The notes beneath the pieces are model-generated. The model saw only the letters and a program-made list of their open reading frames with translations, was not told the DNA's origin and ran no database searches. A program made the translations under genes and the position numbers. Shown here one piece after another: positions 13,801 to 51,900 of a stretch of 64,000 nucleotides of DNA (positions within the stretch are counted from its first letter, which is position 1; every line of letters starts with the position of its first letter). The stretch is from Callorhinchus milii (taxonomy: Eukaryota), in contig NW_024704770.1 in assembly GCF_018977255.1 (NCBI RefSeq), positions 3,410,001 to 3,474,000 of the forward strand, in the 5' to 3' direction.

Positions 13801-15218
13801 GTGTGTGTGTGTGTGTGTGTGTGTAAGAACAGAACCTCAACCCTATAGATACCGAGGAGGTGGGAGATCAGCAGCTTGGGCAGAGGGGGGGGGCAGAGGG
13901 GGCGGAGTGGGGGAGGAGGGTGGGGGCAGAGGGGGGGGGGAGGAGGGTGGGGGCAGAGGGGGGGGAGGAGGGGGGGGCAGAGTGGGGGAGGAGGGTGGGG
14001 GCAGAGTGGGGGGAGGAGGGGGGGCAGAGGGGGGGGGGGGGAGGGTCAGTCACTATGTTACCCAGAGCGTTCTGGATGTGGATGGATTTCTCCGGTGACA
14101 GGAGGGTCTCTTTGCCGTCGTACGGGGAACAGAAACGCACACCTTCCTCCGTCACCTCCGACAGCTCCACCAGAGACACCATCTGAAAACCCCCACTGTC
14201 CTGAGCACAGACAGAGACACAGACAGACCCGTCAGGAGCCGAGTGACCTGCAAACAGCCCCCTCCCCCCCCCCCAACAACCCCCCCTCCCCCCCCCCCAA
14301 CAACCCCCCTCCCCCCCAACCAACGCCCCCCTCCCCCCCCCAACAACCCCCAACAACAAGAACACATTATATTTAAGATAAGAGCAGCAGTCGCTGTCCC
14401 CCTCTCTCTGTAGATGCCGCCTGACCCGCGGGCAATTAATCACAGAGGCTTTCACGTGTGGNNNNNNNNNNNNNNNNNNNNNNNNNNNNNNNNNNNNNNN
14501 NNNNNNNNNNNNNNNNNNNNNNNNNNNNNNNNNNNNNNNNNNNNNNNNNNNNNNNNNNNNNNNNNNNNNNNNNNNNNNNNNNNNNNNNNCCCCGGTGACA
14601 CCCCTCCGGGCTAACCCGCGACCCGGTGCGCAGTCCGCGCCTCACCGTCAGCAGCGCTCGCTTCCAGTTCATGAAGCCGTGCAGTCCCTTCGCCTTCGTG
14701 ATCAGCTCCGGGCCCTGTGGGGGCGAGAGGGCAAAACCGCGCTTACTGTCGCGTCAAAACGTCGCCCGGGAAACCGCAGCGGCCCGTCAGGGCGGGAGAG
14801 CAGAGTGGGGGGGGGGGGGGGGCATTGTGAAGCGGGGGGTGGGGGGGGGGATTGTGAAGCGGGGGGTCCGCGGTGGGGGAGAGAGCGAGAGAGAGAAACC
14901 CCTTCCCCCCCCCCCCCCCCCCGGGGACTCGCGTGGCCGAGGTTGGGGGCTGGGGGTTGACCGGAGGGCCGGGTGCGGCCCGCGGGCCGCGGCAGGCTGA
15001 CTCACGGGCCGGTTGCCCAGGTGGTAGGTGTTGCCGAGGCAGATCTGACAGTCCAGGGCCTCCAACTGCCCCGCGGTGATGCCCTTCAGGGTTCCCTGGG
15101 TCCCCACCGGCATGAAGACGGGGGTCAGGACCGTGTGGTGCGGGAGGCGGAGGCGGCACAGTCGGGCCTTGGTCACCCGGCACTCGGCCACGAGCTGCAG
15201 CGACAGCGGCGCCGCCAT
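10888..15218 (-). CDS. QTRT1: Queuine tRNA-ribosyltransferase catalytic subunit 1; exons 15218-15006, 14714-14646, 14200-14062, 13583-13505, 13387-13272, 13024-12886, 12615-12540, 12254-12145, 11692-11608, 11040-10888
   Basis: Motifs [69 protein letters not shown] and the zinc ligands CNCPTC...H. All 10 exons have GT-AG boundaries in consistent phase. Confidence 0.97.
11120..11395 (+). repeat. C-rich tandem repeat (CACCACCCGCACCCCCCAACTAACCCCACA) in the last intron of QTRT1
   Basis: Directly visible. Confidence 0.85.
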
Positions 15219-15300
15219 TTTCCCGCCTCGCACTTCCCGCCCACAGACCGGAACCGGAAACCGCGCCATGGCAACCGCGGCGCCTGGCAACAGGAAGCGT
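15210..15300. promoter_or_regulatory. CpG-island bidirectional promoter (QTRT1 / unknown + strand gene)
   Basis: CpG-rich; ETS-like CCGGAA x2, CACTTCC and CAGGAAG; YY1-like GCCGCCATTT overlapping the QTRT1 start codon. Confidence 0.6.
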
Positions 15301-15760
15301 GGTCCATGCCTGGTCCTTGGCAACCAACTCTCCTGGCAACCAGACCCCTAGTAACCAAACCCCTCCCACCACCGGCAACCAGACCCCTAGTAACCAACCC
15401 CCCCCCCCAGCAACCAGACCCCTAGTAACCACCACCCCCTGGCAACCAGAACCCTAGTAACTAACCAAATCCCCCCCCCCCAGCAATCGGACCCCTAGTT
15501 ACCAACCACCCCCCCCCCACACCCAGCAACCAGAGCCCGAGTAATCAACCCCTCCCCCCCCCCCGGTAACAAGACCCCCAGTAACTAAACCCATCCGACA
15601 ACAAGACCCCTAGTAACGAGGCTCCTGGCAACCAGACCCCCTGACAACTTGTCTCCAAGACAACGTGGCATCCAGACCCCATGGGAACCACATCCCATGG
15701 CAACCAGGCCCCTGGCCCTTAGCAACCACATCCCATGGCAACCAGACCCCACGGTAACCT
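15265..15760 (+). repeat. Degenerate tandem array of (TG/TA)G(C/T)AACCAGACCCC units (about 20 RFX half-site-like RGYAAC motifs)
   Basis: Repeated ggcaac/agtaac/agcaac/ggtaac cores separated by C-rich linkers. Confidence 0.7.
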
Positions 15761-16654
15761 GGCTGTGGTCCCTGGCTCTCATTGTGGAAGGCCAGGCCTG
15801 GGGGAAGCCTGGCAATAGTGGGGACGGAGTGGAGCAGAGACAGGAGCAAGACCCACCCGGTTTACAGGCTGAAGTGTGGTTTGTCCCCTGCTCCCCCAGA
15901 CCCGCGACCCTACCACCCGACCTGGGCCCCAGACCCCAGCCTGTGATGGCACCAAGGTCCCCAACCATTATATCTGGGGGATTGTCAGCCTGGAAACCGG
16001 GAGAAACTCTCCCTCTCTTCCTACAGTGTCACCGTATCTTTGACCTGTGGCGGACAGGAGCGCAGGTTACTGTCACCTGAAGGACAGCGGCTCTGACAAC
16101 GGAGAATCTTCTGACCCAGAGGTGAGAGGTAACTACACTTCACAGTATATCAGGTGCAACGCTTTGAGATGTCTTGACGACATGATTGATGAGATGCTAT
16201 GTCAAATGCAAAGATTATTGATTGATTCCCATTAATATTCTTTCTATTTGCTGACACAGCCGGTTAGGAAGCCTGCAACAGACACGAAATGGAACTCATC
16301 CACAAAGGAAGTCTTGAAGCCAGGAGCTTCCCATCAATGAAGGTGGGTAATTAATTAATTGATCAGTTTATTGAGCCTCTTTGGACTGGGCTGGGACAGC
16401 CTGGTTCCATCTGGTTTTGATATTAATGGTATAAAAGCCCACATGCAAAGCGAGAGGCTTCAGTTATGTCTGGGGGATGTTACTTTAGGGATGTGTGTGA
16501 GAGAGCAGCAGAACCAGAAGGTTAAATGCTGTGGTAAGTAATGTGCCAAAGAGTTTACTATTTGAAAGGAATGACAACCCTTCGGAATTCATCCCACAGT
16601 CCCTCCGCCTGGTCCGTTTGCGTTGCAGCTAACAGGACAAGGCAGCGTGGAGGA

Positions 16655-18865
16655 ATGGAGCCGGTGATCCCCGGTCCCCAGCAGCTGACGGAGGGGGCAG
16701 TTCAACGCATCAAGACGAGCTGGAACCTGGAAGTCCAAGCCCTGCAGGAGAAGCACAGTACCCAGGCCGTCCAGCTACGACAGGACCCGGCGTATTACAA
16801 GCAGCAACTGGAAAAGATCCTTCACGGTGAGGAACAGGAGGCAGGTGGGCCTTCAGCCTCTCTACCTCCACCCTCTCTACCTCCACCCTCTGGAACTCCA
16901 TCCCACAGTCACTCCGCCTCACACCCTCCCTTGCCTCCTTCAAGACCTGTCTCAAGACCCCTCCTCTTGTACTCCGACCCTCCCCACCTAACCAGCTCAG
17001 GTGCAGATGGAACCCTGACTGTCCAGCGCCTTGGGACGTCCTCCTGATGTGAAAGGTGCTAAACAAAAATATGTTGTTACTGTTTACTAACTCACTCACT
17101 GATAATAGTGTTTCTGTAGATTAGTTTTATTTGGGATTTACCTCCCCTTCAATCGCAACCATTGTAAAAAAAAATCAGCTGCCGTGTTTCACCCACAGAA
17201 TACAGTCACTTCACTTTACAGTCTACTCTGTGAAGCGCTTTGAGACGGGATAAGGCACTGTATCAAATGCAAGGATTATTATTATTATAAACCAGATTTT
17301 TTTNGTCTCTTTTTCAGTTAAAGCTCAGCTTCCCCTTCACTCAGACACGGAGAGTTTCCTGGCGCACAACCCTTCTCCTGCTCGCTGTCCGCAAGCCTGC
17401 TGTGGCGTTACCGGGGAAGTGAGGTGAGTGAGTGAACCTTTTAAAACAAATAGACTGCTTGGTATTAAAGCAGAGCTCAGCTCCAGCACTGTTTCCTGAG
17501 TTGCTCAAGCCCTGACCTTTAATTACCTCTCAAAGGCAGATTCCCAGGACCCCAACTTGCATTTACACAGCACCCTTCATGCCGGGTAGTGTCCCGGAGT
17601 GCTTAAGAGTGGCGGAGTCTGACCCCAAGCCAAGGGGGCGAGGGAGGGGAGGGGGAAGTGACCCTAAGCACTGTCAAAAAGGAAGGTGTTTAGGCAGGTT
17701 TTGAAAGTTGGCAGGGCGGAGAGATTGAGCAAGAGAGTTTTGGGGCGTAGTGTCGTCAGCCGAGCGGAGGCAGCAGGTGGTGGAGTGGGGGGGGGAAGGA
17801 TAAGCAGATCGGAGAGGCGCAGAGGTGTCAGGGCAGGCAGGGAATTGAAACCAAGGTGGCTCAAGACAGGAGCTCCTTTGCCTCTGTGGCAGGTTAGTGC
17901 AGGCCTGGGCACTGCGCTACCCTGTAAGAGATGCTGTGCTTTGGATAAGAGGGTTGCAGTTGCAGAGCCAGTGTAGCTTGTCGGGCTGAGCGACTTCTGT
18001 TCCGAGCTGTATTCTCGCACGTGACTGGTTTGTGCGTCTCTGTTGTGTGTTCCTAGCCGCTTGGTGTCACCGCTGCCCGGAGATCGAGAACGAGCGCCGA
18101 GGGCTGAGCGAGCCGTGGCAGGAGGCCAGGGGCGGAGGCAGGACACGGTGAGGCAGCCCCCAGCTAGGACTCTCTACGGGGAGATGCAGAAAGCCATGTC
18201 CCTGCAGCAGAGACGACGGGCTGTGCGAGCGACATCGCCAAATCCCTCTCCCAGCTCGGCAACATCCTGCAGTCGGTGTCTCTCGGTTCCTCACCGTGCT
18301 TCGTCGATGGCTCACTCAGGTACACACCGCAAGCACATGTGCTTCCACATTCATTCACTCAATCCACGACTGTTTGTGGGACGCTGCTGTGCAGAATTGG
18401 CTGCCACGTTCGCCCACACATCAGTCACTACACTTTACAGTGTATCCTGTGAAGCGTTTGAGACGTCTCGATGACATCTTGATAATAATAATCCTCGCAT
18501 TTGATACAACGTCTTATCACGTCTTTGTGACGTCTCAAAGCGCTTCACAGGTTATGCTGTGAAGTGAATTGACTGACGTTTTATGGGTGAAATCTGATAA
18601 GGCGCTATATCAACTGCAAAGATTATTATTCCTCTGCGTCCATCAGCGAGAGACTGTGGCCACCTGCTCCCCGTTCTCTTATACAGGGACTCAATGTGGG
18701 AACAGCTGGGAGCTGCGGGGGGCTCGAGTCCACGAGAAGCCAGGCGGGAGACAAGAAACCGGAGTCGGGACAAAGCGAGCGGAGGGGAAAGGATTCTGCG
18801 CCGAGGTCAGCCATCGCCGCGAGGGGAGCAGCACCGCCCACTGTCAGCGCCCAGCACCGGCCTGA
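16655..18865 (+). CDS. Uncharacterised spliced gene (about 239 aa); coding exons 16655-16826, 17318-17423, 18057-18319, 18687-18865 (an alternative frame ends at 18996); candidate 5'UTR exons 16027-16121 and 16260-16342
   Basis: Strong Kozak context (ggaATGG). Four exons with canonical AG/GT join in phase into a 720-nt open frame. Helical N-terminus (TEGAVQRIKTSWNLEVQALQEKH...YYKQQLEKILH). AATAAA at 19118 and 19410. No family recognised. Confidence 0.5.
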
Positions 18866-19554
18866 CCCGCCGTCAGGCCTCCGCGGACACCAGCTCCGAG
18901 CTGCCGGGAAACAGGCCCCAGAAACGCAAGGTCACGTGGGCTGACCCCATTGTCGTCTCCTGGCCTCGCTCCTCCCGCTATCCGACTTGGCAATGAGGGG
19001 GCGTTGGGGAATGGCTGGGCTAACGTGGGATCTCTGTGCCTCAATCGGTGAGCAATGTGAAGTGGAACAGAATCTCTCTACATATCAAAAAGTCGTGATA
19101 TCTACCCTATTATCTAAAATAAACATAATTTCTTTAAGACTTATCAGATATTGTAACGGTATCACGGCTTTTTGGCTCTGCAACTGCACCCTGTATATAT
19201 TTACTTTAAACTGTCTGAATACGTATTTGATTTATATTGTGTGTGTGTGTGTGTGGAGGGGGTGGGGTGGGGGAAAGGGGGTGTGTTATGGTTCTGAACT
19301 CTGCCTTTCAGCCTGTCTGCATATTTTGTGTTCACGCAAAGTAACACTCACTGAATCCACAAAACCCACAGACTCCTGTGAATGCAACACAACTGTTTAT
19401 TTACTAAGCAATAAATTTATGTACCCTAATTTCCAACTCGGTTTTACGTCTCATCCAAAGGGTGGGAGTGGGGGTAGGGGGGTCTCTCTCCCTATGTGGG
19501 CATTACACGCTCTGGGTGGAGGAGGGTGATTCTGTCTCTGCGTGTGCGCGTTTG

Positions 19555-20040
19555 TGTGCGTGGGTAGGGATCTCCCTGTGTGGTTGGGGGGCAGGGGTGT
19601 CTCTGTGTGGCTGGGTGGGGGGGAGGTAGGGGTCTCTCTGTGTGGCTGGGTGGGGGGTAGGGGTCTCTGTGTGGCTGGGTGGGGGGTGGTGTGGGTAGGG
19701 GTCTCTCTGTGTGGCTGTGTGTGGGGGGTGTGGGTAGGGGTCTCTCTGTGTGGCTGTGTGTGGGGGGGTGTGGGTAGGGGTCTCTCTGTGTGGCTGGGTG
19801 GGGGGTGGTGGGGGTAGGGGTCTCTGTGTGGCTGTGTGTGGGGGGGTGTGGGTAGGGGTCTCTCTGTGTGGCTGGGTGGGGGGTGGTGTGGGTAGGGGTC
19901 TCTGTGTGGCTGTGTGTGGGGGGGTGTGGGTAGGGGTCTCTGTGTGTGGCTGGGTGGGGGGTGGTGGGGGTAGGGGTCTCTGTGTGGCTGGGTGTGGTGG
20001 GGGGTAGGGGTCTCTGTGTGGCTGGGATGGGGGGGGTCTT
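19555..20040 (+). repeat. G-rich minisatellite (GGTAGGGGTCTCTCTGTGTGGCTGGGTGGGGG-like units)
   Basis: Directly visible tandem units upstream of the UCK promoter. Confidence 0.9.
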
Positions 20041-20350: not shown

Positions 20351-23172
20351 ATGGCGGGCGACGCGGCTGCAAAGGCCGCCGCCGAGAGGAGGCTCCAGCA
20401 GCAACGGCCTTTCCTCATCGCCGTCAGCGGCGGCACGGCCAGCGGCAAAGTACGTAGAGCGCGCGAGAGAGAGAGCGGTTTTAAGAGGGGGGGGGGGGGG
20501 GAAAGAAAAAAAAAAACCCCGTTTACCTCAGGGTTTTTGACCCCATTCGTTCCTTTCGCTCTGATTTTTTTTTCTCTCTCTCTCTCGCCGCTCTCTTCGT
20601 CATTTGGCCGTTGGAAAGAGCCGCGTGGACGGACGGGCGGACGCTGCGGCGCATGCGCACTGCTCCCTCCTCCTCCTCCTCCTCCCCCCCCCCCGCCGCC
20701 GCCGCGCGGAGTGATCGGGTGGCACTTCTTTTCCCCCCTCTCTCTCTCTCTCCCTCTCTGGCTCGGCGCGCATGCGGGTGATGAGGTCAAGGACGAGTCG
20801 CGCGCGTGCGCACGCGCGCCCCCCTTCCCCCTCCCCCCCCCCTTTTTCTCTGGTCGGTGTGTCTCCGCTCCGCTCGCTCTCTTTTCTTTTTTCCCGACCC
20901 CGCCCCGATTGATGGTTCGTTGTTTCACGTGCGCGGCCGTCAGGTCAAGAGCGGGCGGGCGGGCGGGGGGGAAGGGGAGACGAGGAAGCAGGTGGGAGGG
21001 CTCCTTGCTGCAGACACCTGGTCACCTGTGTGTGTGTGTGTGTGTGTGGGGGAGTGAGTGTGTTGTATATTTTTTTTCTTGGATTCTCCCCCCATTTGAC
21101 TCCTTTGTGTGCGCGGATGGATGTTACGCCGAGGAGGATTTTCGGTTGTTATTTTCGAGGCGCGGGGAAAAAAAAAAATGACACCGGGGGCGGGTGTGCG
21201 CGTACGTGCTATGTACGGTCCGCGTGGCCACGCGCCGCGCTTGCGTTCGGGGTACGGCGTCTTATCCCCCGCCCTCCAGGCGCCCCGAAGCGCTCCGCGG
21301 CCCTGACAGCAACGGCGGTGGACAGCCCCCCCGGCGTTCGACCCCGGCGGCCTCGAGCCGTCCCGCAGCGCTTCCCGGCATCCGCCGCGCCGCCCGGTTG
21401 CGCTGCCCCCGACGCGTGCCCGCGGGACGCCCCGCCGGTCGGAGTGACCCCGATTTGTTGTTTTAGGGCGTTACTGTCAAGCGGGCGGGACTGTGTATTG
21501 TGGGGGGTGGGTGTGCGGGGGGGAGGCCCCGAGTGAAACGTTTTCGCCGCCGGTTCGGGTGGGCGTGTTTGAGGCGTCTCGAAGCGCCTCGCGGAACGTA
21601 CTGTTGGGGTGCAGTGACTGTCCGTTTTGTGAGCGCGAAGGTAATCCGGGTCTGTGGGTGACCTGATTTGTGGGCGGGAGTGGAATGAGGACTTTCACAG
21701 CCAATATCAGGGGAAGGAGATTATTGGAGAGCCGCTGGATGGCAGACTGACTGACTGACTGACTGACTGACCAGCTTTATGGCAGCCACAAATCACAATT
21801 AGTACAGTAGTTCCCTGTGGTTGATTGCGGCTGCTTTCTGTCTGGTATATCTAGTTCTATCTGGAATCCTCCAGCTCAGTGGTTAGAGCAATCGCCTCGC
21901 AAGCGAGAAGACGGGTTTGAATCCCGGTAGGCGGGAACGTTGGACAAGTTTCCTTACTCCACGCGCTTCTGTTGACCCGGTAAATAGGAACCCGGTTGAT
22001 AGTCGATTTGTGGATTGCTTTTCCGGGAATAATAATTCCTTAACAATCACTGAATCCGCGACTGTTTGTGAGTCACTGCTGTGCACAATTGGCTGCCACG
22101 TTTTGCCCACAAAATATACAGTCAATTCACTTTACAATCTATTCTGTGAAGTGCTTTGAGCTGACTCAATGACATGATAAGGCACTACATCAGATGCAAG
22201 GATGATTATTATATCAGGGGAAGGAGATTAGATAGCCGCTGAGTCTGTGTTAGCCACAAATTGCAACTGGTGCAGTAGTTCTCTGGTTTATTGCCAATGC
22301 TTTCTGTATGGTGTATCTCAACGCTATGTTGATGTGGTTTGTTTTTTTTTGCCCAGTCCTCGGTGTGTCAGAAGATCGTGGAGCTCCTGGGGCAGAACAA
22401 AGTGGACCAACACCAGAGGCAAGTGGTGATCCTGAGCCAGGACAGTTTCTACCGGGTGCTGACGGTGGAACAGAAAACCAAAGTCAGTAAAGGACAATAC
22501 AACTTCGATCATCCAGGTACCCTGCCCTACGCAGCCTGACAGCTGAGATACACAAGGATAATAATAATAATAATCCTTGCATTTGATATAGCGTCTTGAT
22601 CACGTCTTTGAGACACCTCAAAGCACAGAATATACTAAAGTGAATTGACCGTATATCTTGTGAGCGAAGTGCGGCGGCCAATTGCACACAGCAGAGCCTC
22701 CACACACAGTCGGGGATTGAGTGTGCCCAGTGCAGTCTGACCTCCTGGTTTGTTCCCACGCAGATGCCTTTGACAATGAGCTGATACTGCGGACCCTCAA
22801 GGACATTATCAGCGGCCGAACGGTTCAGATTCCTGTCTACGATTTTGTGGTTCATTCTCGGTACGCACAGGCTTTTTTTTCATTTTTCCCTCTTGACTCT
22901 GTCTATGCTTCTCTCTCTGCCCTGTGTCTCTCTCTCTCTCTCTCTCTGACTTTGTCTTTCTCTCCCTCTGTCTCTGTACCTGGTGCTCAGTCTCTCTCTG
23001 CCTGTGTGTGTGTGTCTCTCTCTCTTTGCTGTGACTCACACTCTCTCTGTCTGTGTGTGTGTCTTTCTCTCTCTGCTGTGACTCACTCTCTCACTCTCTG
23101 GCAGGAAGGAGGAGATGGTGACGGTTTATCCGGCTGATGTGGTTCTGTTTGAGGGGATCCTGGTTTTCTACT
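20351..23172 (+). CDS. Uridine-cytidine kinase (UCK2-like; UCK1/2 family), partial; exons 20351-20449, 22357-22516, 22764-22860, 23105-(gap at 23173)
   Basis: MAGD...[15 protein letters not shown] (P-loop)/[14 protein letters not shown]...[14 protein letters not shown]...[14 protein letters not shown]...[35 protein letters not shown]. Exons of 99, 160 and 97 nt join in phase. The remaining exons are lost at the N gap. Confidence 0.93.
21860..22215 (+). mobile_element. Near full-length tRNA-derived SINE with L2-like tail
   Basis: Head AGCTCAGTGGTTAGAGCAATCGCCTCGCAAGCGAG...GGTTTGAATCCC; tail TGTGAAGTGCTTTGAG...ATGCAAGGATGATTATT. Confidence 0.8.
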
Positions 23173-48959: not shown

Positions 48960-51900
48960 CTACTGCACCTTCTCCGCCAACAGCAGCCGACTGGGTTTGC
49001 GGGATCGGAATCGCAGGAGGATCTTGCAGCAGCCTCTGCCGATCTTATACATCCAGATAACGTTCAGCACGTCCAGACTGATGCTGGATGTAAGCCAGGC
49101 ACACTGCGGCCCCAGCCCCAGGCGCTCAAACCCCTCCGTCCCAAACGTGTCCACCACCTTGTGGTAGTAGGAGGGGATGACAGCGATCCTCACCAGGAAG
49201 AAGGTGCCGGCCATGGCCACTCCATTCAACATCGCCAGCGTCTTGGTCCGCGGGAAGCCCAACACCTCGAAGAACCACCTGGAGTTAANNNNNNNNNNNN
49301 NNNNNNNNNNNNNNNNNNNNNNNNNNNNNNNNNNNNNNNNNNNNNNNNNNNNNNNNNNNNNNNNNNNNNNNNNNNNNNNNNNNNNNNNNNNNNNNNNNNN
49401 NNNNNNNNNNNNNNNNNNNNNNNNNNNNNNNNNCAAACACAGAGACACTCACAGACACACACACAGATACTCATAGACACACGCAGAGACACAGAGAGAG
49501 ACACTCAGACACAGACACACACATACAGACACACAGAGTCAGAGAGACACACACACACACCCACACGCACAGAGAGAGACACACACACCCACACGCACAG
49601 AGGGAGATACACACATACATACACACACACACACACACACACGCGCACAGAGACACACACACACACTCAAGAGAACAATCAATACTGAGTTACGGAGATT
49701 GCAGCAAAACTGAAAAGATTCCTTTGTGCCTTTTTTATTCTTATAATAATAATAATAATAATCCTGGCGTTTGACCCGGCGCCTCATCACGTCATCAGGA
49801 TACACTGTGAAGTGTAGTGACTGTGTGTTTTTGGAGGCAAAATGTGACAGCCAATTGTGCACAGAGACGCCCCCACAAACAGTCGTGGATTGATTCACCA
49901 AATTATTATTTATTTTGGAGGAATTATTACCCCCAGAAAGTGATCTAACGATCGACTAACAACCAGATTCCTACTTACTGCTGATAAACTGAGGCGCGTG
50001 TGTGTGTGTGTGTGTGACTGTGTGTGACTGTGTGTGCGTGTGTGTGGAGTAAGGAAACTTGCCTAAGTTTCACCCTGACCTGACGTGCCTGGGAACCGAA
50101 CCCGGCTCTCTCGCTGGCGGGGGCTCTAACCCCTGAGCTACGAGACTCCGGCAACTTACCTCTGGTTGACAAACGGAGTGGAGAGCTCCGCGATCAGCCG
50201 GAAGTTGGCAAAATAGGGAAGGAGGCCCCGGTTCTGTGGAAGAAACACATGGAGGATGTGAAACAGTTCGCGCGTTGGGAATGTTCTGGGAAAGTTCCGG
50301 AGACGGCTAAACCAAGTGGGGGGGGGGAAGGGTCCAACCTTTGGCCGGCCGAGGGCTGGATGCCCAGTTTGAGAAATGTCTGGAAGGGGGGAGGTGGGGG
50401 GGCAAAGGCATGAGCAATATTTTTGGTTTCCCTTCCAGAAACATAACGTAAGATAACATTTCCGGGTTGTGGGGGTGGGGGGGGGGGATGAACAACAGCA
50501 ACAACACTATGTTTGTAAAGTGCCTTTCACATCGGGAGGACGTCCCAAGGCACCAAACAGTCGGGGATCAGAGCCTGAGCGTGTGGTGGGGGGGGGGGGG
50601 GTTGGGGTGAGGGAGGGCAGGGGTAAGAGGGCGGCCGAAAAGGAGGGTCTTGAGTCATGCCTTGAAGGAGGCAAGGGAGGGAGCGAGGCCAAGGTTGGGA
50701 TGGAGTTGCAGAGGAGGAGGAGGCATGATATGGAGTGGGGGGGATGAATTTGGCCGAAGCAGCCACCATTTGGACCACTCTGGGGTGAGAGCTGGCAGTG
50801 GCCGGACTTACCAGCACATACTGGTAGGCGTAGAGAGCCGCCAAGTGGTGGCAGAGGAAAAAGCCGTCACCTATTGTCGTCCAGTGGCACAGGAGCAGCA
50901 CTAAATCTGCAAGAGAGCACGGGCATGAGCGGGCAAAGCCAAGAGACTGATGGGAGAGAGGGCAGAGCCAACCAACACACCAACAGCACAGACATAGCCA
51001 AAGCCAACACACCAACAGCACAGACACAGCCAAAGCCAACACACCAACAGCACAGACACAGCCAAAGCCAACACACCAACAGCACAGACACAGCCAAAGC
51101 CAACACACCAACAGCACAGACACAGCCAAAGCCAACACAGCAACAGCACGGACACAGCCAAAGCCAACACACCAACAGCACAGACACAGCCAAAGCCAAC
51201 ACACCAACAGCACAGACACACCAACAGCACGGACACAGCCAAAGCCAACACACCAACAGCACAGACACAGCCAAAGCCAACACACCAACAGCACAGACAC
51301 ACCAACAGCACAGACACAGCCAAAGCCAACACACCAACAGCACAGACACAGCCAAAGCCAACACACCAACAGCACAGACACAGCCAAAGCCAACACACCA
51401 ACAGCACGGACACAGCCAAAGCCAACACACCACAGCACGGACACAGCCAAAGCCAACACACCAACAGCACGGACACAGCCAAAGCCAACACACCAACAGC
51501 ACGGACACAGCCAAAGCCAACACACCAACAGCACGGACACAGCCAAAGCCAACACACCAACAGCACGGACACAGCCAAAGCCAACACACCAACAGCACGG
51601 ACACAGCCAAAGCCAACACACCAACAGCACGGACACAGCCAAAGCCAACACACCAACAGCACGGACACAGCCAAAGCCAACACACCAACAGCACGGACAC
51701 AGCCAAAGCCAACACACCAACAGCACGGACACAGCCAAAGCCAACACACCAACAGCACGGACACAGCCAAAGCCAACACACCAACAGCACGGACACAGCC
51801 AAAGCCAACACACCAACAGCACGGACACAGCCAAAGCCGGTGAACAATGAGAGACAAAGCCAAGGCCAATTGGGAATGAGGCACAGATCATTGCAAAGCC

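What the first reader, a model, noticed from the sequence alone, without database searches (positions are those of the whole stretch)
16027..19415. Unrecognised multi-exon gene head-to-head with QTRT1
Seen: two candidate UTR exons (carrying a short uORF starting MELIHKG) and four phase-compatible coding exons give a roughly 239-aa ORF, followed by poly(A) signals at 19118 and 19410. The N-terminus looks helical or coiled-coil and the rest disordered. I do not recognise it as any human 19p13.2 gene. Inference: a lineage-restricted or fast-evolving gene, and the best candidate for undescribed biology in this window.
Basis: partly seen in the sequence, partly recalled or inferred. Interest (0 to 1): 0.7.

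Follow-up and report, generated by a model that had tools for sequence, protein, structure and literature searches.

The report
Orphan PP1-docking gene beside QTRT1
A real spliced gene with no relatives found sits back-to-back with QTRT1 in this elephant-shark-type genome; the assembly lacks one base in it, and with that base it reads as a 283-residue, mostly floppy protein whose tail is predicted to dock the phosphatase PP1, so it likely steers that enzyme, perhaps in sperm or other ciliated cells.

Summary
One 901-nt contig of run X1 joins all four coding exons at the predicted GT-AG sites. All three runs that cover 18250 (X1, X4, X5) carry one more base than the window. With it the frame runs 283 codons to the stop at 18994-18996, not 239. 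The corrected tail holds an RVxF motif (RKVTW, aa 261-265) followed by hydrophobic and Arg residues. A model docks it on PP1: 0.90 against best control 0.02, though similar complexes are solved, so this shows likeness only. No homolog was found except an old RefSeq model of this locus (LOC103172601), which shares only the first coding exon. Relatives under about 45% identity could be missed. The two UTR exons and the uORF are unverified. Twenty RFX half-sites lie in 500 bp upstream. Verdict: a fast-evolving or lineage-restricted gene, likely a PP1-targeting adaptor; germ-cell or cilia role inferred only.

The parts
16655..16826 (+). First coding exon (aa 1-57), ATG at 16655 with G at -3 and +4; predicted helix aa 13-56
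   Evidence: X1 contig covers 16656 onward and joins to 17318; codon-position GC 0.70/0.32/0.77, 0 of 500 shuffles as biased; model mean pLDDT 78, single sequence
17318..17423 (+). Second coding exon (aa 58-93)
   Evidence: both junctions in the X1 contig
18057..18319 (+). Third coding exon (aa 93-181); one base longer in the runs than in the window
   Evidence: both junctions in the X1 contig
18249..18252 (+). Place where the window lacks one base (likely assembly error in a short C run); the frame shifts here
   Evidence: extra base in 3 of 3 covering runs: X1 and X4 one letter, X5 another
18687..18996 (+). Coding part of the last exon (aa 181-283), stop at 18994-18996; predicted disordered and basic
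   Evidence: X1 contig covers 18687-19046; frame and FoldIndex-type profile
18922..18984 (+). Predicted PP1-docking string: KRKVTW (aa 260-265), hydrophobic aa 269-271, Arg 275/278
   Evidence: motif match and shuffle rate; interface aa 261-266 and 268-280 in the complex model
18997..19415 (+). 3' UTR with AATAAA at 19118 and 19410
   Evidence: hexamers in sequence; an X1 contig covers 19048-19215, past the first signal, and ends in adapter-like letters; cleavage sites not shown
16027..16121 (+). Candidate 5' UTR exon (unverified)
   Evidence: splice-site sequence only
16260..16342 (+). Candidate 5' UTR exon with uORF start at 16289 (unverified)
   Evidence: splice-site sequence only
16600..16654 (+). 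Candidate untranslated front of the first coding exon (unverified acceptor 16599)
   Evidence: sequence only; the acceptor region resembles a second stretch at 16884-16919, 78% over 36 nt
15251..15760 (+). Array of RFX-type half-sites (RGYAAC) between QTRT1 and the gene, partly a degenerate 35-41 bp minisatellite; candidate promoter element
   Evidence: 20 half-sites in the best 500-bp window, at most 4 in any 500-bp window elsewhere; 21 in 15220-16026 against shuffle mean 1.5, max 6 of 300; repeat unit

Best explanation
This is a single-copy spliced gene whose frame, with the base the assembly lacks, is 283 codons, and whose protein likely works as a PP1-targeting adaptor: a predicted N-terminal helix would anchor or dimerise it, and the C-terminal RVxF string is predicted to bind the phosphatase PP1. 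Shown: the four-exon splice form, the extra base, the open frame and the motif. Predicted: the helix, the disorder of the linker, and docking of aa 261-280 on PP1. Inferred: that the protein is made; that the helix provides the anchor; that phosphorylation of the Thr inside the motif would release PP1 (as for Aurora sites in RVxF motifs, PMC6363451); that the RFX half-site array drives it in flagellated or ciliated cells such as spermatids; and that it is a fast-evolving gene rather than a newly born one.
For: Three GT-AG junctions in one X1 contig; X1 also holds a spliced QTRT1 contig, and the DNA-like runs X4 and X5 show none of these three joints. Three exons searched in the genome each match only this place, so the joined form is not a retrocopy. 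Extra base in 3 of 3 covering runs. 283-codon frame rare in shuffles, first exon strongly codon-biased. RKVTW fits the review consensus; 190 of 20000 residue shuffles hold such a motif. It lies in a predicted disordered tail. Complex model: score 0.90, best of 3 controls 0.02; the mark was reached by 51 of 78 solved and 2 of 108 mismatched pairs (eukaryotes: 39 of 65 solved without a like complex, 2 of 126 unrelated); runs agree in at least 59% of contacts, partner pLDDT at least 53. PP1 residues touched include 24, 70, 71 and 271, which PMC7599070 names for the Arg motif. The motif plus next four residues resembles the RIF1 peptide VRRVSFADPI printed in PMC6613105. RFX half-site cluster upstream.
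Against: No ortholog was found, so the motif's conservation is untested. The complex pass may be memory of solved RVxF complexes; the calibration did not test peptides or disordered chains, no control carried an RVxF motif, and PP1 was a mammalian stand-in. A loose RVxF occurs in 2694 of 20000 shuffles. No strict SILK motif, and the Trp-motif contact (PP1 Ile133) is not in the listed interface. The last exon has no codon bias in either frame (236 and 158 of 500 shuffles). Variants give no selection signal: 3 of 7 synonymous, p = 0.45. Splice support comes from one run only. No strict two-half X-box in the array, and its copies are partly repeat units, not independent. Tissue and transcription start are unknown.
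Confidence: 0.45

Rival explanations
1. A real 283-aa protein whose function lies in the N-terminal helix; the RVxF string is a chance match in a drifting disordered tail.
For: Codon bias is confined to the first exon; loose RVxF matches are common (2694 of 20000 shuffles); missense variants occur along the linker and tail.
Against: The stricter consensus is met (190 of 20000), with flanking basic, hydrophobic and Arg residues that the model places on the matching PP1 surfaces; the frame stays open for 102 codons of the last exon up to just past the string.
Confidence: 0.25
2. An unrecognisably diverged ortholog of a gene already named in other vertebrates (for example a coiled-coil spermatid gene of the human 19p13.2 neighbourhood such as CCDC159).
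For: The neighbours ILF3-like, QTRT1, ELOF1 and a calponin gene are those of human 19p13.2 (domains; human gene order recalled). Search sensitivity is poor below 45% identity. CCDC159 is a spermatid-neck protein (PMC12901780 passages); its map position and exon count are recalled.
Against: No Pfam match at curated cut-off for any exon; no hit among 1.84 billion representatives or in the word searches, in a collection that holds many named vertebrate proteins. No direct comparison with CCDC159 was run.
Confidence: 0.15
3. A young or decaying gene, or a spliced non-coding transcript from the QTRT1 bidirectional promoter, whose frame is open largely by GC richness; the window's shorter allele could be a real loss-of-frame variant.
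For: No relatives; no selection signal in 7 variants; no codon bias after the first exon (87 of 500 shuffles).
Against: 283 open codons across three phase-compatible junctions (0 of 1000 and 11 of 1000 shuffles); strong codon bias in the first exon; none of the 7 coding variants is a stop; all 3 covering runs have the in-frame form.
Confidence: 0.1

Closest known systems
RefSeq prediction XP_007883539.1, uncharacterized LOC103172601, Callorhinchus milii (P0001, 213 aa)
   Same: Same locus by sequence: identical over the 57-aa first coding exon and a few residues either side.
   Different: Adds 149 N-terminal residues from upstream sequence for which no joint was listed, uses another donor, and lacks coding exons 2-4 and the RVxF tail. 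No paper names it (0 papers).
PP1-interacting proteins with RVxF-phiphi-R(-W) strings: Phactr1-4, neurabin/spinophilin, PNUTS, PPP1R15A/B (PMC7599070, PMC12185105)
   Same: RVxF core, hydrophobic residues 4-6 after it, Arg 10-13 after it, in a disordered region; modelled on the same PP1 surfaces. Phactr1 spacing is +5 to +8, +14 and +20.
   Different: No sequence homology; spacing 1-3 residues shorter; Trp contact not seen in the model; the protein ends right after the string, so no groove-remodelling helix or PDZ domain follows.
RIF1 PP1-binding motif (peptide in PMC6613105)
   Same: Core plus the next four residues are alike (KVTWADPI here, RVSFADPI there), with a phosphorylatable residue at the x position.
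   Different: RIF1 is a very large HEAT-repeat protein with a SILK motif (recalled); no homology was found; only a SILK-like RILR at aa 216 here.
Lineage-specific (orphan) genes of fishes (PMC3599513, abstract and outline)
   Same: [quoted passage not shown]
   Different: Tissue here is unknown; no paralog was found, whereas many zebrafish cases arose by duplication.

Membership tests
PP1-interacting protein (RVxF type) | RVxF motif [KR][KR][VI]x[FW] | tested here: met
   RKVTW at aa 261-265 of the corrected frame; 190 of 20000 shuffles; consensus from PMC6363451, where I read the fourth position as excluded residues from recall
PP1-interacting protein (RVxF type) | Motif lies in a disordered, accessible region | tested here: met
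   FoldIndex-type values negative over aa 181-283; a prediction
PP1-interacting protein (RVxF type) | Motif conserved in orthologs | not testable with these tools
   no ortholog retrieved
PP1-interacting protein (RVxF type) | Physical binding to PP1 that depends on the motif | tested here: inconclusive
   model passes (0.90, best control 0.02; 51 of 78 solved and 2 of 108 mismatched pairs reach the mark) but like complexes are solved; no measurement
RVxF-phiphi-R-W string PIPs | phiphi and Arg motifs contacting PP1 | tested here: inconclusive
   aa 268-280 in the modelled interface with PP1 23-25, 70-71, 74, 78, 270-271, 288-300; model only
RVxF-phiphi-R-W string PIPs | Trp motif contacting PP1 Ile133 | tested here: inconclusive
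   W282 and PP1 133 are not named in the interface; the tool says an unnamed residue is uncertain
PP1-interacting protein (RVxF type) | SILK motif (accessory, not required) | tested here: not met
   no [SG]IL[KR]; only RILR at aa 216
Protein-coding gene | Spliced transcript with a long open frame | tested here: met
Protein-coding gene | Translation or purifying selection | tested here: inconclusive
   first-exon codon bias (0 of 500 shuffles) but 3 of 7 variants synonymous, p = 0.45
RFX target gene | X-box GTNRCC N0-3 RGYAAC near the transcription start | tested here: inconclusive
   20 half-sites in 500 bp but no strict two-half box; start site unknown; consensus from PMC5752003 and PMC10530576
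Known vertebrate gene family (Pfam or sequence homology) | Significant sequence or profile match | tested here: inconclusive
   none found; simulated detection for the 57-aa exon 71 of 200 at 40% and 157 of 200 at 50% identity

The most novel reading that the evidence does not exclude
A chimaera- or cartilaginous-fish-specific PP1 targeting subunit with no counterpart in other vertebrates, which gained an RVxF-phiphi-R docking string at its very end and a promoter built from a minisatellite of RFX half-sites, wiring a new phosphatase adaptor into the flagellum or cilium programme from the back of the QTRT1 promoter.
Probability: 0.15. Interest if true: 0.65.

Novelty: new member of a known kind. 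Interest (0 to 1): 0.4.

Why it matters
It corrects the gene model at a locus where a one-base shortfall in the assembly hides the real C-terminus and an old prediction has the wrong exons. If the docking is real it adds a PP1 regulator with no recognisable relatives, in a lineage used as an outgroup for jawed-vertebrate gene content. It would then be a clean test of how a phosphatase-docking string and an RFX-type promoter arise in a fast-evolving or new gene. Orphan-like genes and newly arisen short motifs are common, so the surprise is moderate.

Tried and rejected
Alternative last-exon acceptor 18647 (296 aa from window letters): not among the listed joints; 18687 is. The 239-aa reading: rejected by the extra base. 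Retrocopy as source of the joined contig: rejected, single genomic match for each of 3 exons searched. Expression breadth: no RNA holder is listed on record. Contigs show presence, not absence, so I draw no conclusion on tissue restriction. UTR exons: no X1 cover over 15256-16655 apart from repeat-derived depth, and one unspliced X2 piece at 16149-16311 at depth 2.8; a hole proves nothing. Homolog searches: first exon by word index among longer proteins, 1 hit among 27 candidates; by full phmmer, 1 hit; last exon, none among 409 candidates. The two middle exons were not searched in these collections, and the spliced protein was never used as a query. Pfam: nothing at cut-off, best a Mu Gam coiled-coil match at E 0.05-0.08. 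PDB sequences: best E 0.41, designed coiled coils. Fold searches of the helix: 0 Foldseek matches; best Z 4.6, rmsd 2.5, 50 aligned, generic helices. Rfam: 0 matches. ESM Atlas gave no answer. The bacterial promoter scan was irrelevant. The QTRT1 control row was out of frame and was redone. The three longer motif patterns (6, 27 and 2 of 20000) were written after seeing the sequence and are not used as evidence. TRGYAAC is not enriched window-wide (23 against 26.8 expected); only the local cluster stands out. Not in print: searches for LOC103172601 (0 papers), QTRT1+ELOF1+synteny (1 paper, terms not in its main text), Callorhinchus milii + orphan genes (1 zebrafish paper); supplements were not searched and could list the gene.

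Full report
Setting. The window is G000:C29:3410001-3474000 of a 991.5-Mb genome. The only protein hit carries the label Callorhinchus milii. A Pfam scan of 150 of 180 selected reading frames gave the order: dsRNA-binding domain (+), TGT (-), this gene (+), uridine-kinase family (+), Elf1 (+), calponin (-), TLC domain (-). Naming these ILF3, QTRT1, UCK-type, ELOF1, CNN and TLCD rests on those domains and on recall of human 19p13.2. QTRT1's ATG is at 15218 on the minus strand, 1437 bases from this gene's ATG at 16655, so the head-to-head layout holds.

Splicing. Twelve runs were listed, none on record as RNA; I laid seven. Run X1 holds one 901-nt contig spanning 16656-19046 with three GT-AG joints: 16826/17318, 17423/18057 and 18319/18687. 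X1 also holds a spliced QTRT1 contig, so it behaves as RNA. X4 and X5 run through intronic sequence and show none of the three joints, and each of three exons searched matches only this place in the genome. The four coding exons are therefore real, on the support of one run. The two upstream exons and the uORF were neither confirmed nor excluded.

The missing base. X1 and X4 have an extra C in the C run at 18250-18252, and X5 has an extra G at the same codon. That is 3 of 3 covering runs, from 2 studies. The simplest reading is that the assembly dropped a base at a site that is also polymorphic (Pro or Arg 158, read by me from the two tables); a real deletion allele in the sequenced animal is not excluded. 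With an unknown base placed there the frame is 283 codons, stop 18994-18996, pI about 10.8. Side evidence is weak but in the same direction: 2 of 3 last-exon variants are synonymous in the new frame against 1 of 3 in the old, and the 22 codons after the site have GC 0.59/0.45/0.77 against 0.45/0.77/0.55 (72 and 490 of 500 shuffles).

Is it coding? A stop-free frame of 283 was reached by 0 of 1000 shuffles of the spliced span and 11 of 1000 of the coding part. The first exon has strong codon-position bias (0 of 500 shuffles), like QTRT1 exon 1 (0 of 500). The rest has none (87 of 500; last exon 236 of 500). Seven coding variants include no stop, but 3 synonymous of 7 is no selection signal (p = 0.45). 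I put about 0.85-0.9 on a real protein, with constraint visible only at the N-terminus.

Relatives. The 57-aa first exon found only XP_007883539.1 (LOC103172601) among longer proteins by word index and among 1.84 billion representatives. That old model shares the first exon and nothing downstream. The last exon found nothing among 409 candidates. The collection holds many named vertebrate proteins; no shark name appeared in the rows I saw, but two unchecked earlier notes of this scan report shark proteins. A simulation gave detection of 14, 71, 117, 157 and 198 of 200 at 35, 40, 45, 50 and 60% identity for this exon. So close relatives are absent from the collection, and distant ones are not excluded. 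Pfam, PDB sequence, fold and Rfam searches were uninformative.

Anatomy and mechanism. Residues 13-56 model as helix (mean pLDDT 78, no alignment), with one heptad register 8 of 14 hydrophobic. Most of the rest is predicted disordered, with two short less-polar patches. The tail that the error had hidden holds KRKVTW at aa 260-265, then hydrophobic aa 269-271, Arg 275 and 278, Trp 282. RKVTW fits the consensus given in PMC6363451 (passages); 190 of 20000 residue shuffles hold such a motif, and 2694 of 20000 hold a loose one. The order recalls the RVxF-phiphi-R-W string (PMC7599070, passages and section 7; PMC12185105, passages), with spacing 1-3 residues shorter than Phactr1. The core and next four residues resemble the RIF1 peptide in PMC6613105 (one passage).

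Complex model. The last 42 residues were folded with a mammalian PP1-gamma (aa 7-300) and manganese. Score 0.90, best of 3 controls 0.02. The mark was reached by 51 of 78 solved and 2 of 108 mismatched pairs; in eukaryotes by 39 of 65 solved pairs without a like complex and 2 of 126 unrelated pairs. Runs agree in at least 59% of contacts; partner pLDDT at least 53. The interface covers aa 261-266 and 268-280 and includes PP1 24, 70, 71 and 271, the Arg-motif contacts named in PMC7599070. The Trp contact is not listed. Because many RVxF complexes are solved, peptides were outside the calibration, and no control carried an RVxF, this shows likeness to PP1 partners, not binding. My committed reading is a two-ended adaptor: helix as anchor or dimer, disordered basic linker, PP1 docked at the tail, release by phosphorylation of T264. 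Only the sequence features are shown; all function is inferred (0.45).

Upstream. Between QTRT1 and the gene lie 20 RGYAAC half-sites in 500 bp, against at most 4 in any other 500-bp window, and 21 against a local shuffle mean of 1.5. RGYAAC is the reverse complement of the monomeric RFX site (PMC10530576, passages) and half of the X-box (PMC5752003, passages). RFX2 is a major regulator of spermiogenesis whose sites cluster near start sites (PMC4498915, listing and passages). There is no strict two-half box, part of the array is a 35-41 bp minisatellite, and it could equally serve QTRT1 or nothing. It is the only ground, with the general bias of orphan genes (PMC3599513, abstract and outline), for guessing a flagellar or ciliary role.

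Verdict. Observation partly confirmed; interpretation partly supported. A real gene with a wrong old model and a frame broken by a likely assembly error; no known family; works most likely like an RVxF-type PP1 regulator, membership unproven. Other papers seen: PMC6544628 (passages), PMC12901780 (passages), PMC7990949 (term search, no hit). No supplements were read. Interest 0.4.

Noticed in passing
window 15251-15760: Dense one-strand array of RFX-type half-sites, partly a degenerate 35-41 bp minisatellite, directly behind the QTRT1 start.
   Followed up: partly
window 20351 onward (+), exon at 22333-22536: Uridine-kinase-family gene with two further copies elsewhere in the genome at 73% and 71% over this exon. 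Likely a third UCK paralog in a region where human has none (recalled).
   Followed up: partly
window 48963-49286 (-): TLC-domain gene next to the calponin gene; resembles the TLCD4-CNN3 pairing on human 1p21 (recalled), so possibly a retained ohnolog.
   Followed up: no
window 16655 and 19047: The X1 contig begins one base after the A of the ATG and breaks again at 19047, where X5 has a variant; the cause of the first break is unexplained.
   Followed up: no
window 18069: All three covering runs differ from the window at this synonymous position: a second possible assembly error or private variant.
   Followed up: no
window 19648-20034: 40/78-bp GT-rich minisatellite of about 10 units just upstream of the UCK-type promoter.
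   Followed up: no
window 16127-16222, 16900-17290, 18340-18630: High-copy dispersed repeat fragments in the introns; they swamp read-laying and give false joints.
   Followed up: no
window 16533/16534 and 16629/16630: A strong donor and a nearby acceptor, apparently those used by the old RefSeq model, offer an alternative 5' route into the first coding exon; no joint was listed.
   Followed up: no
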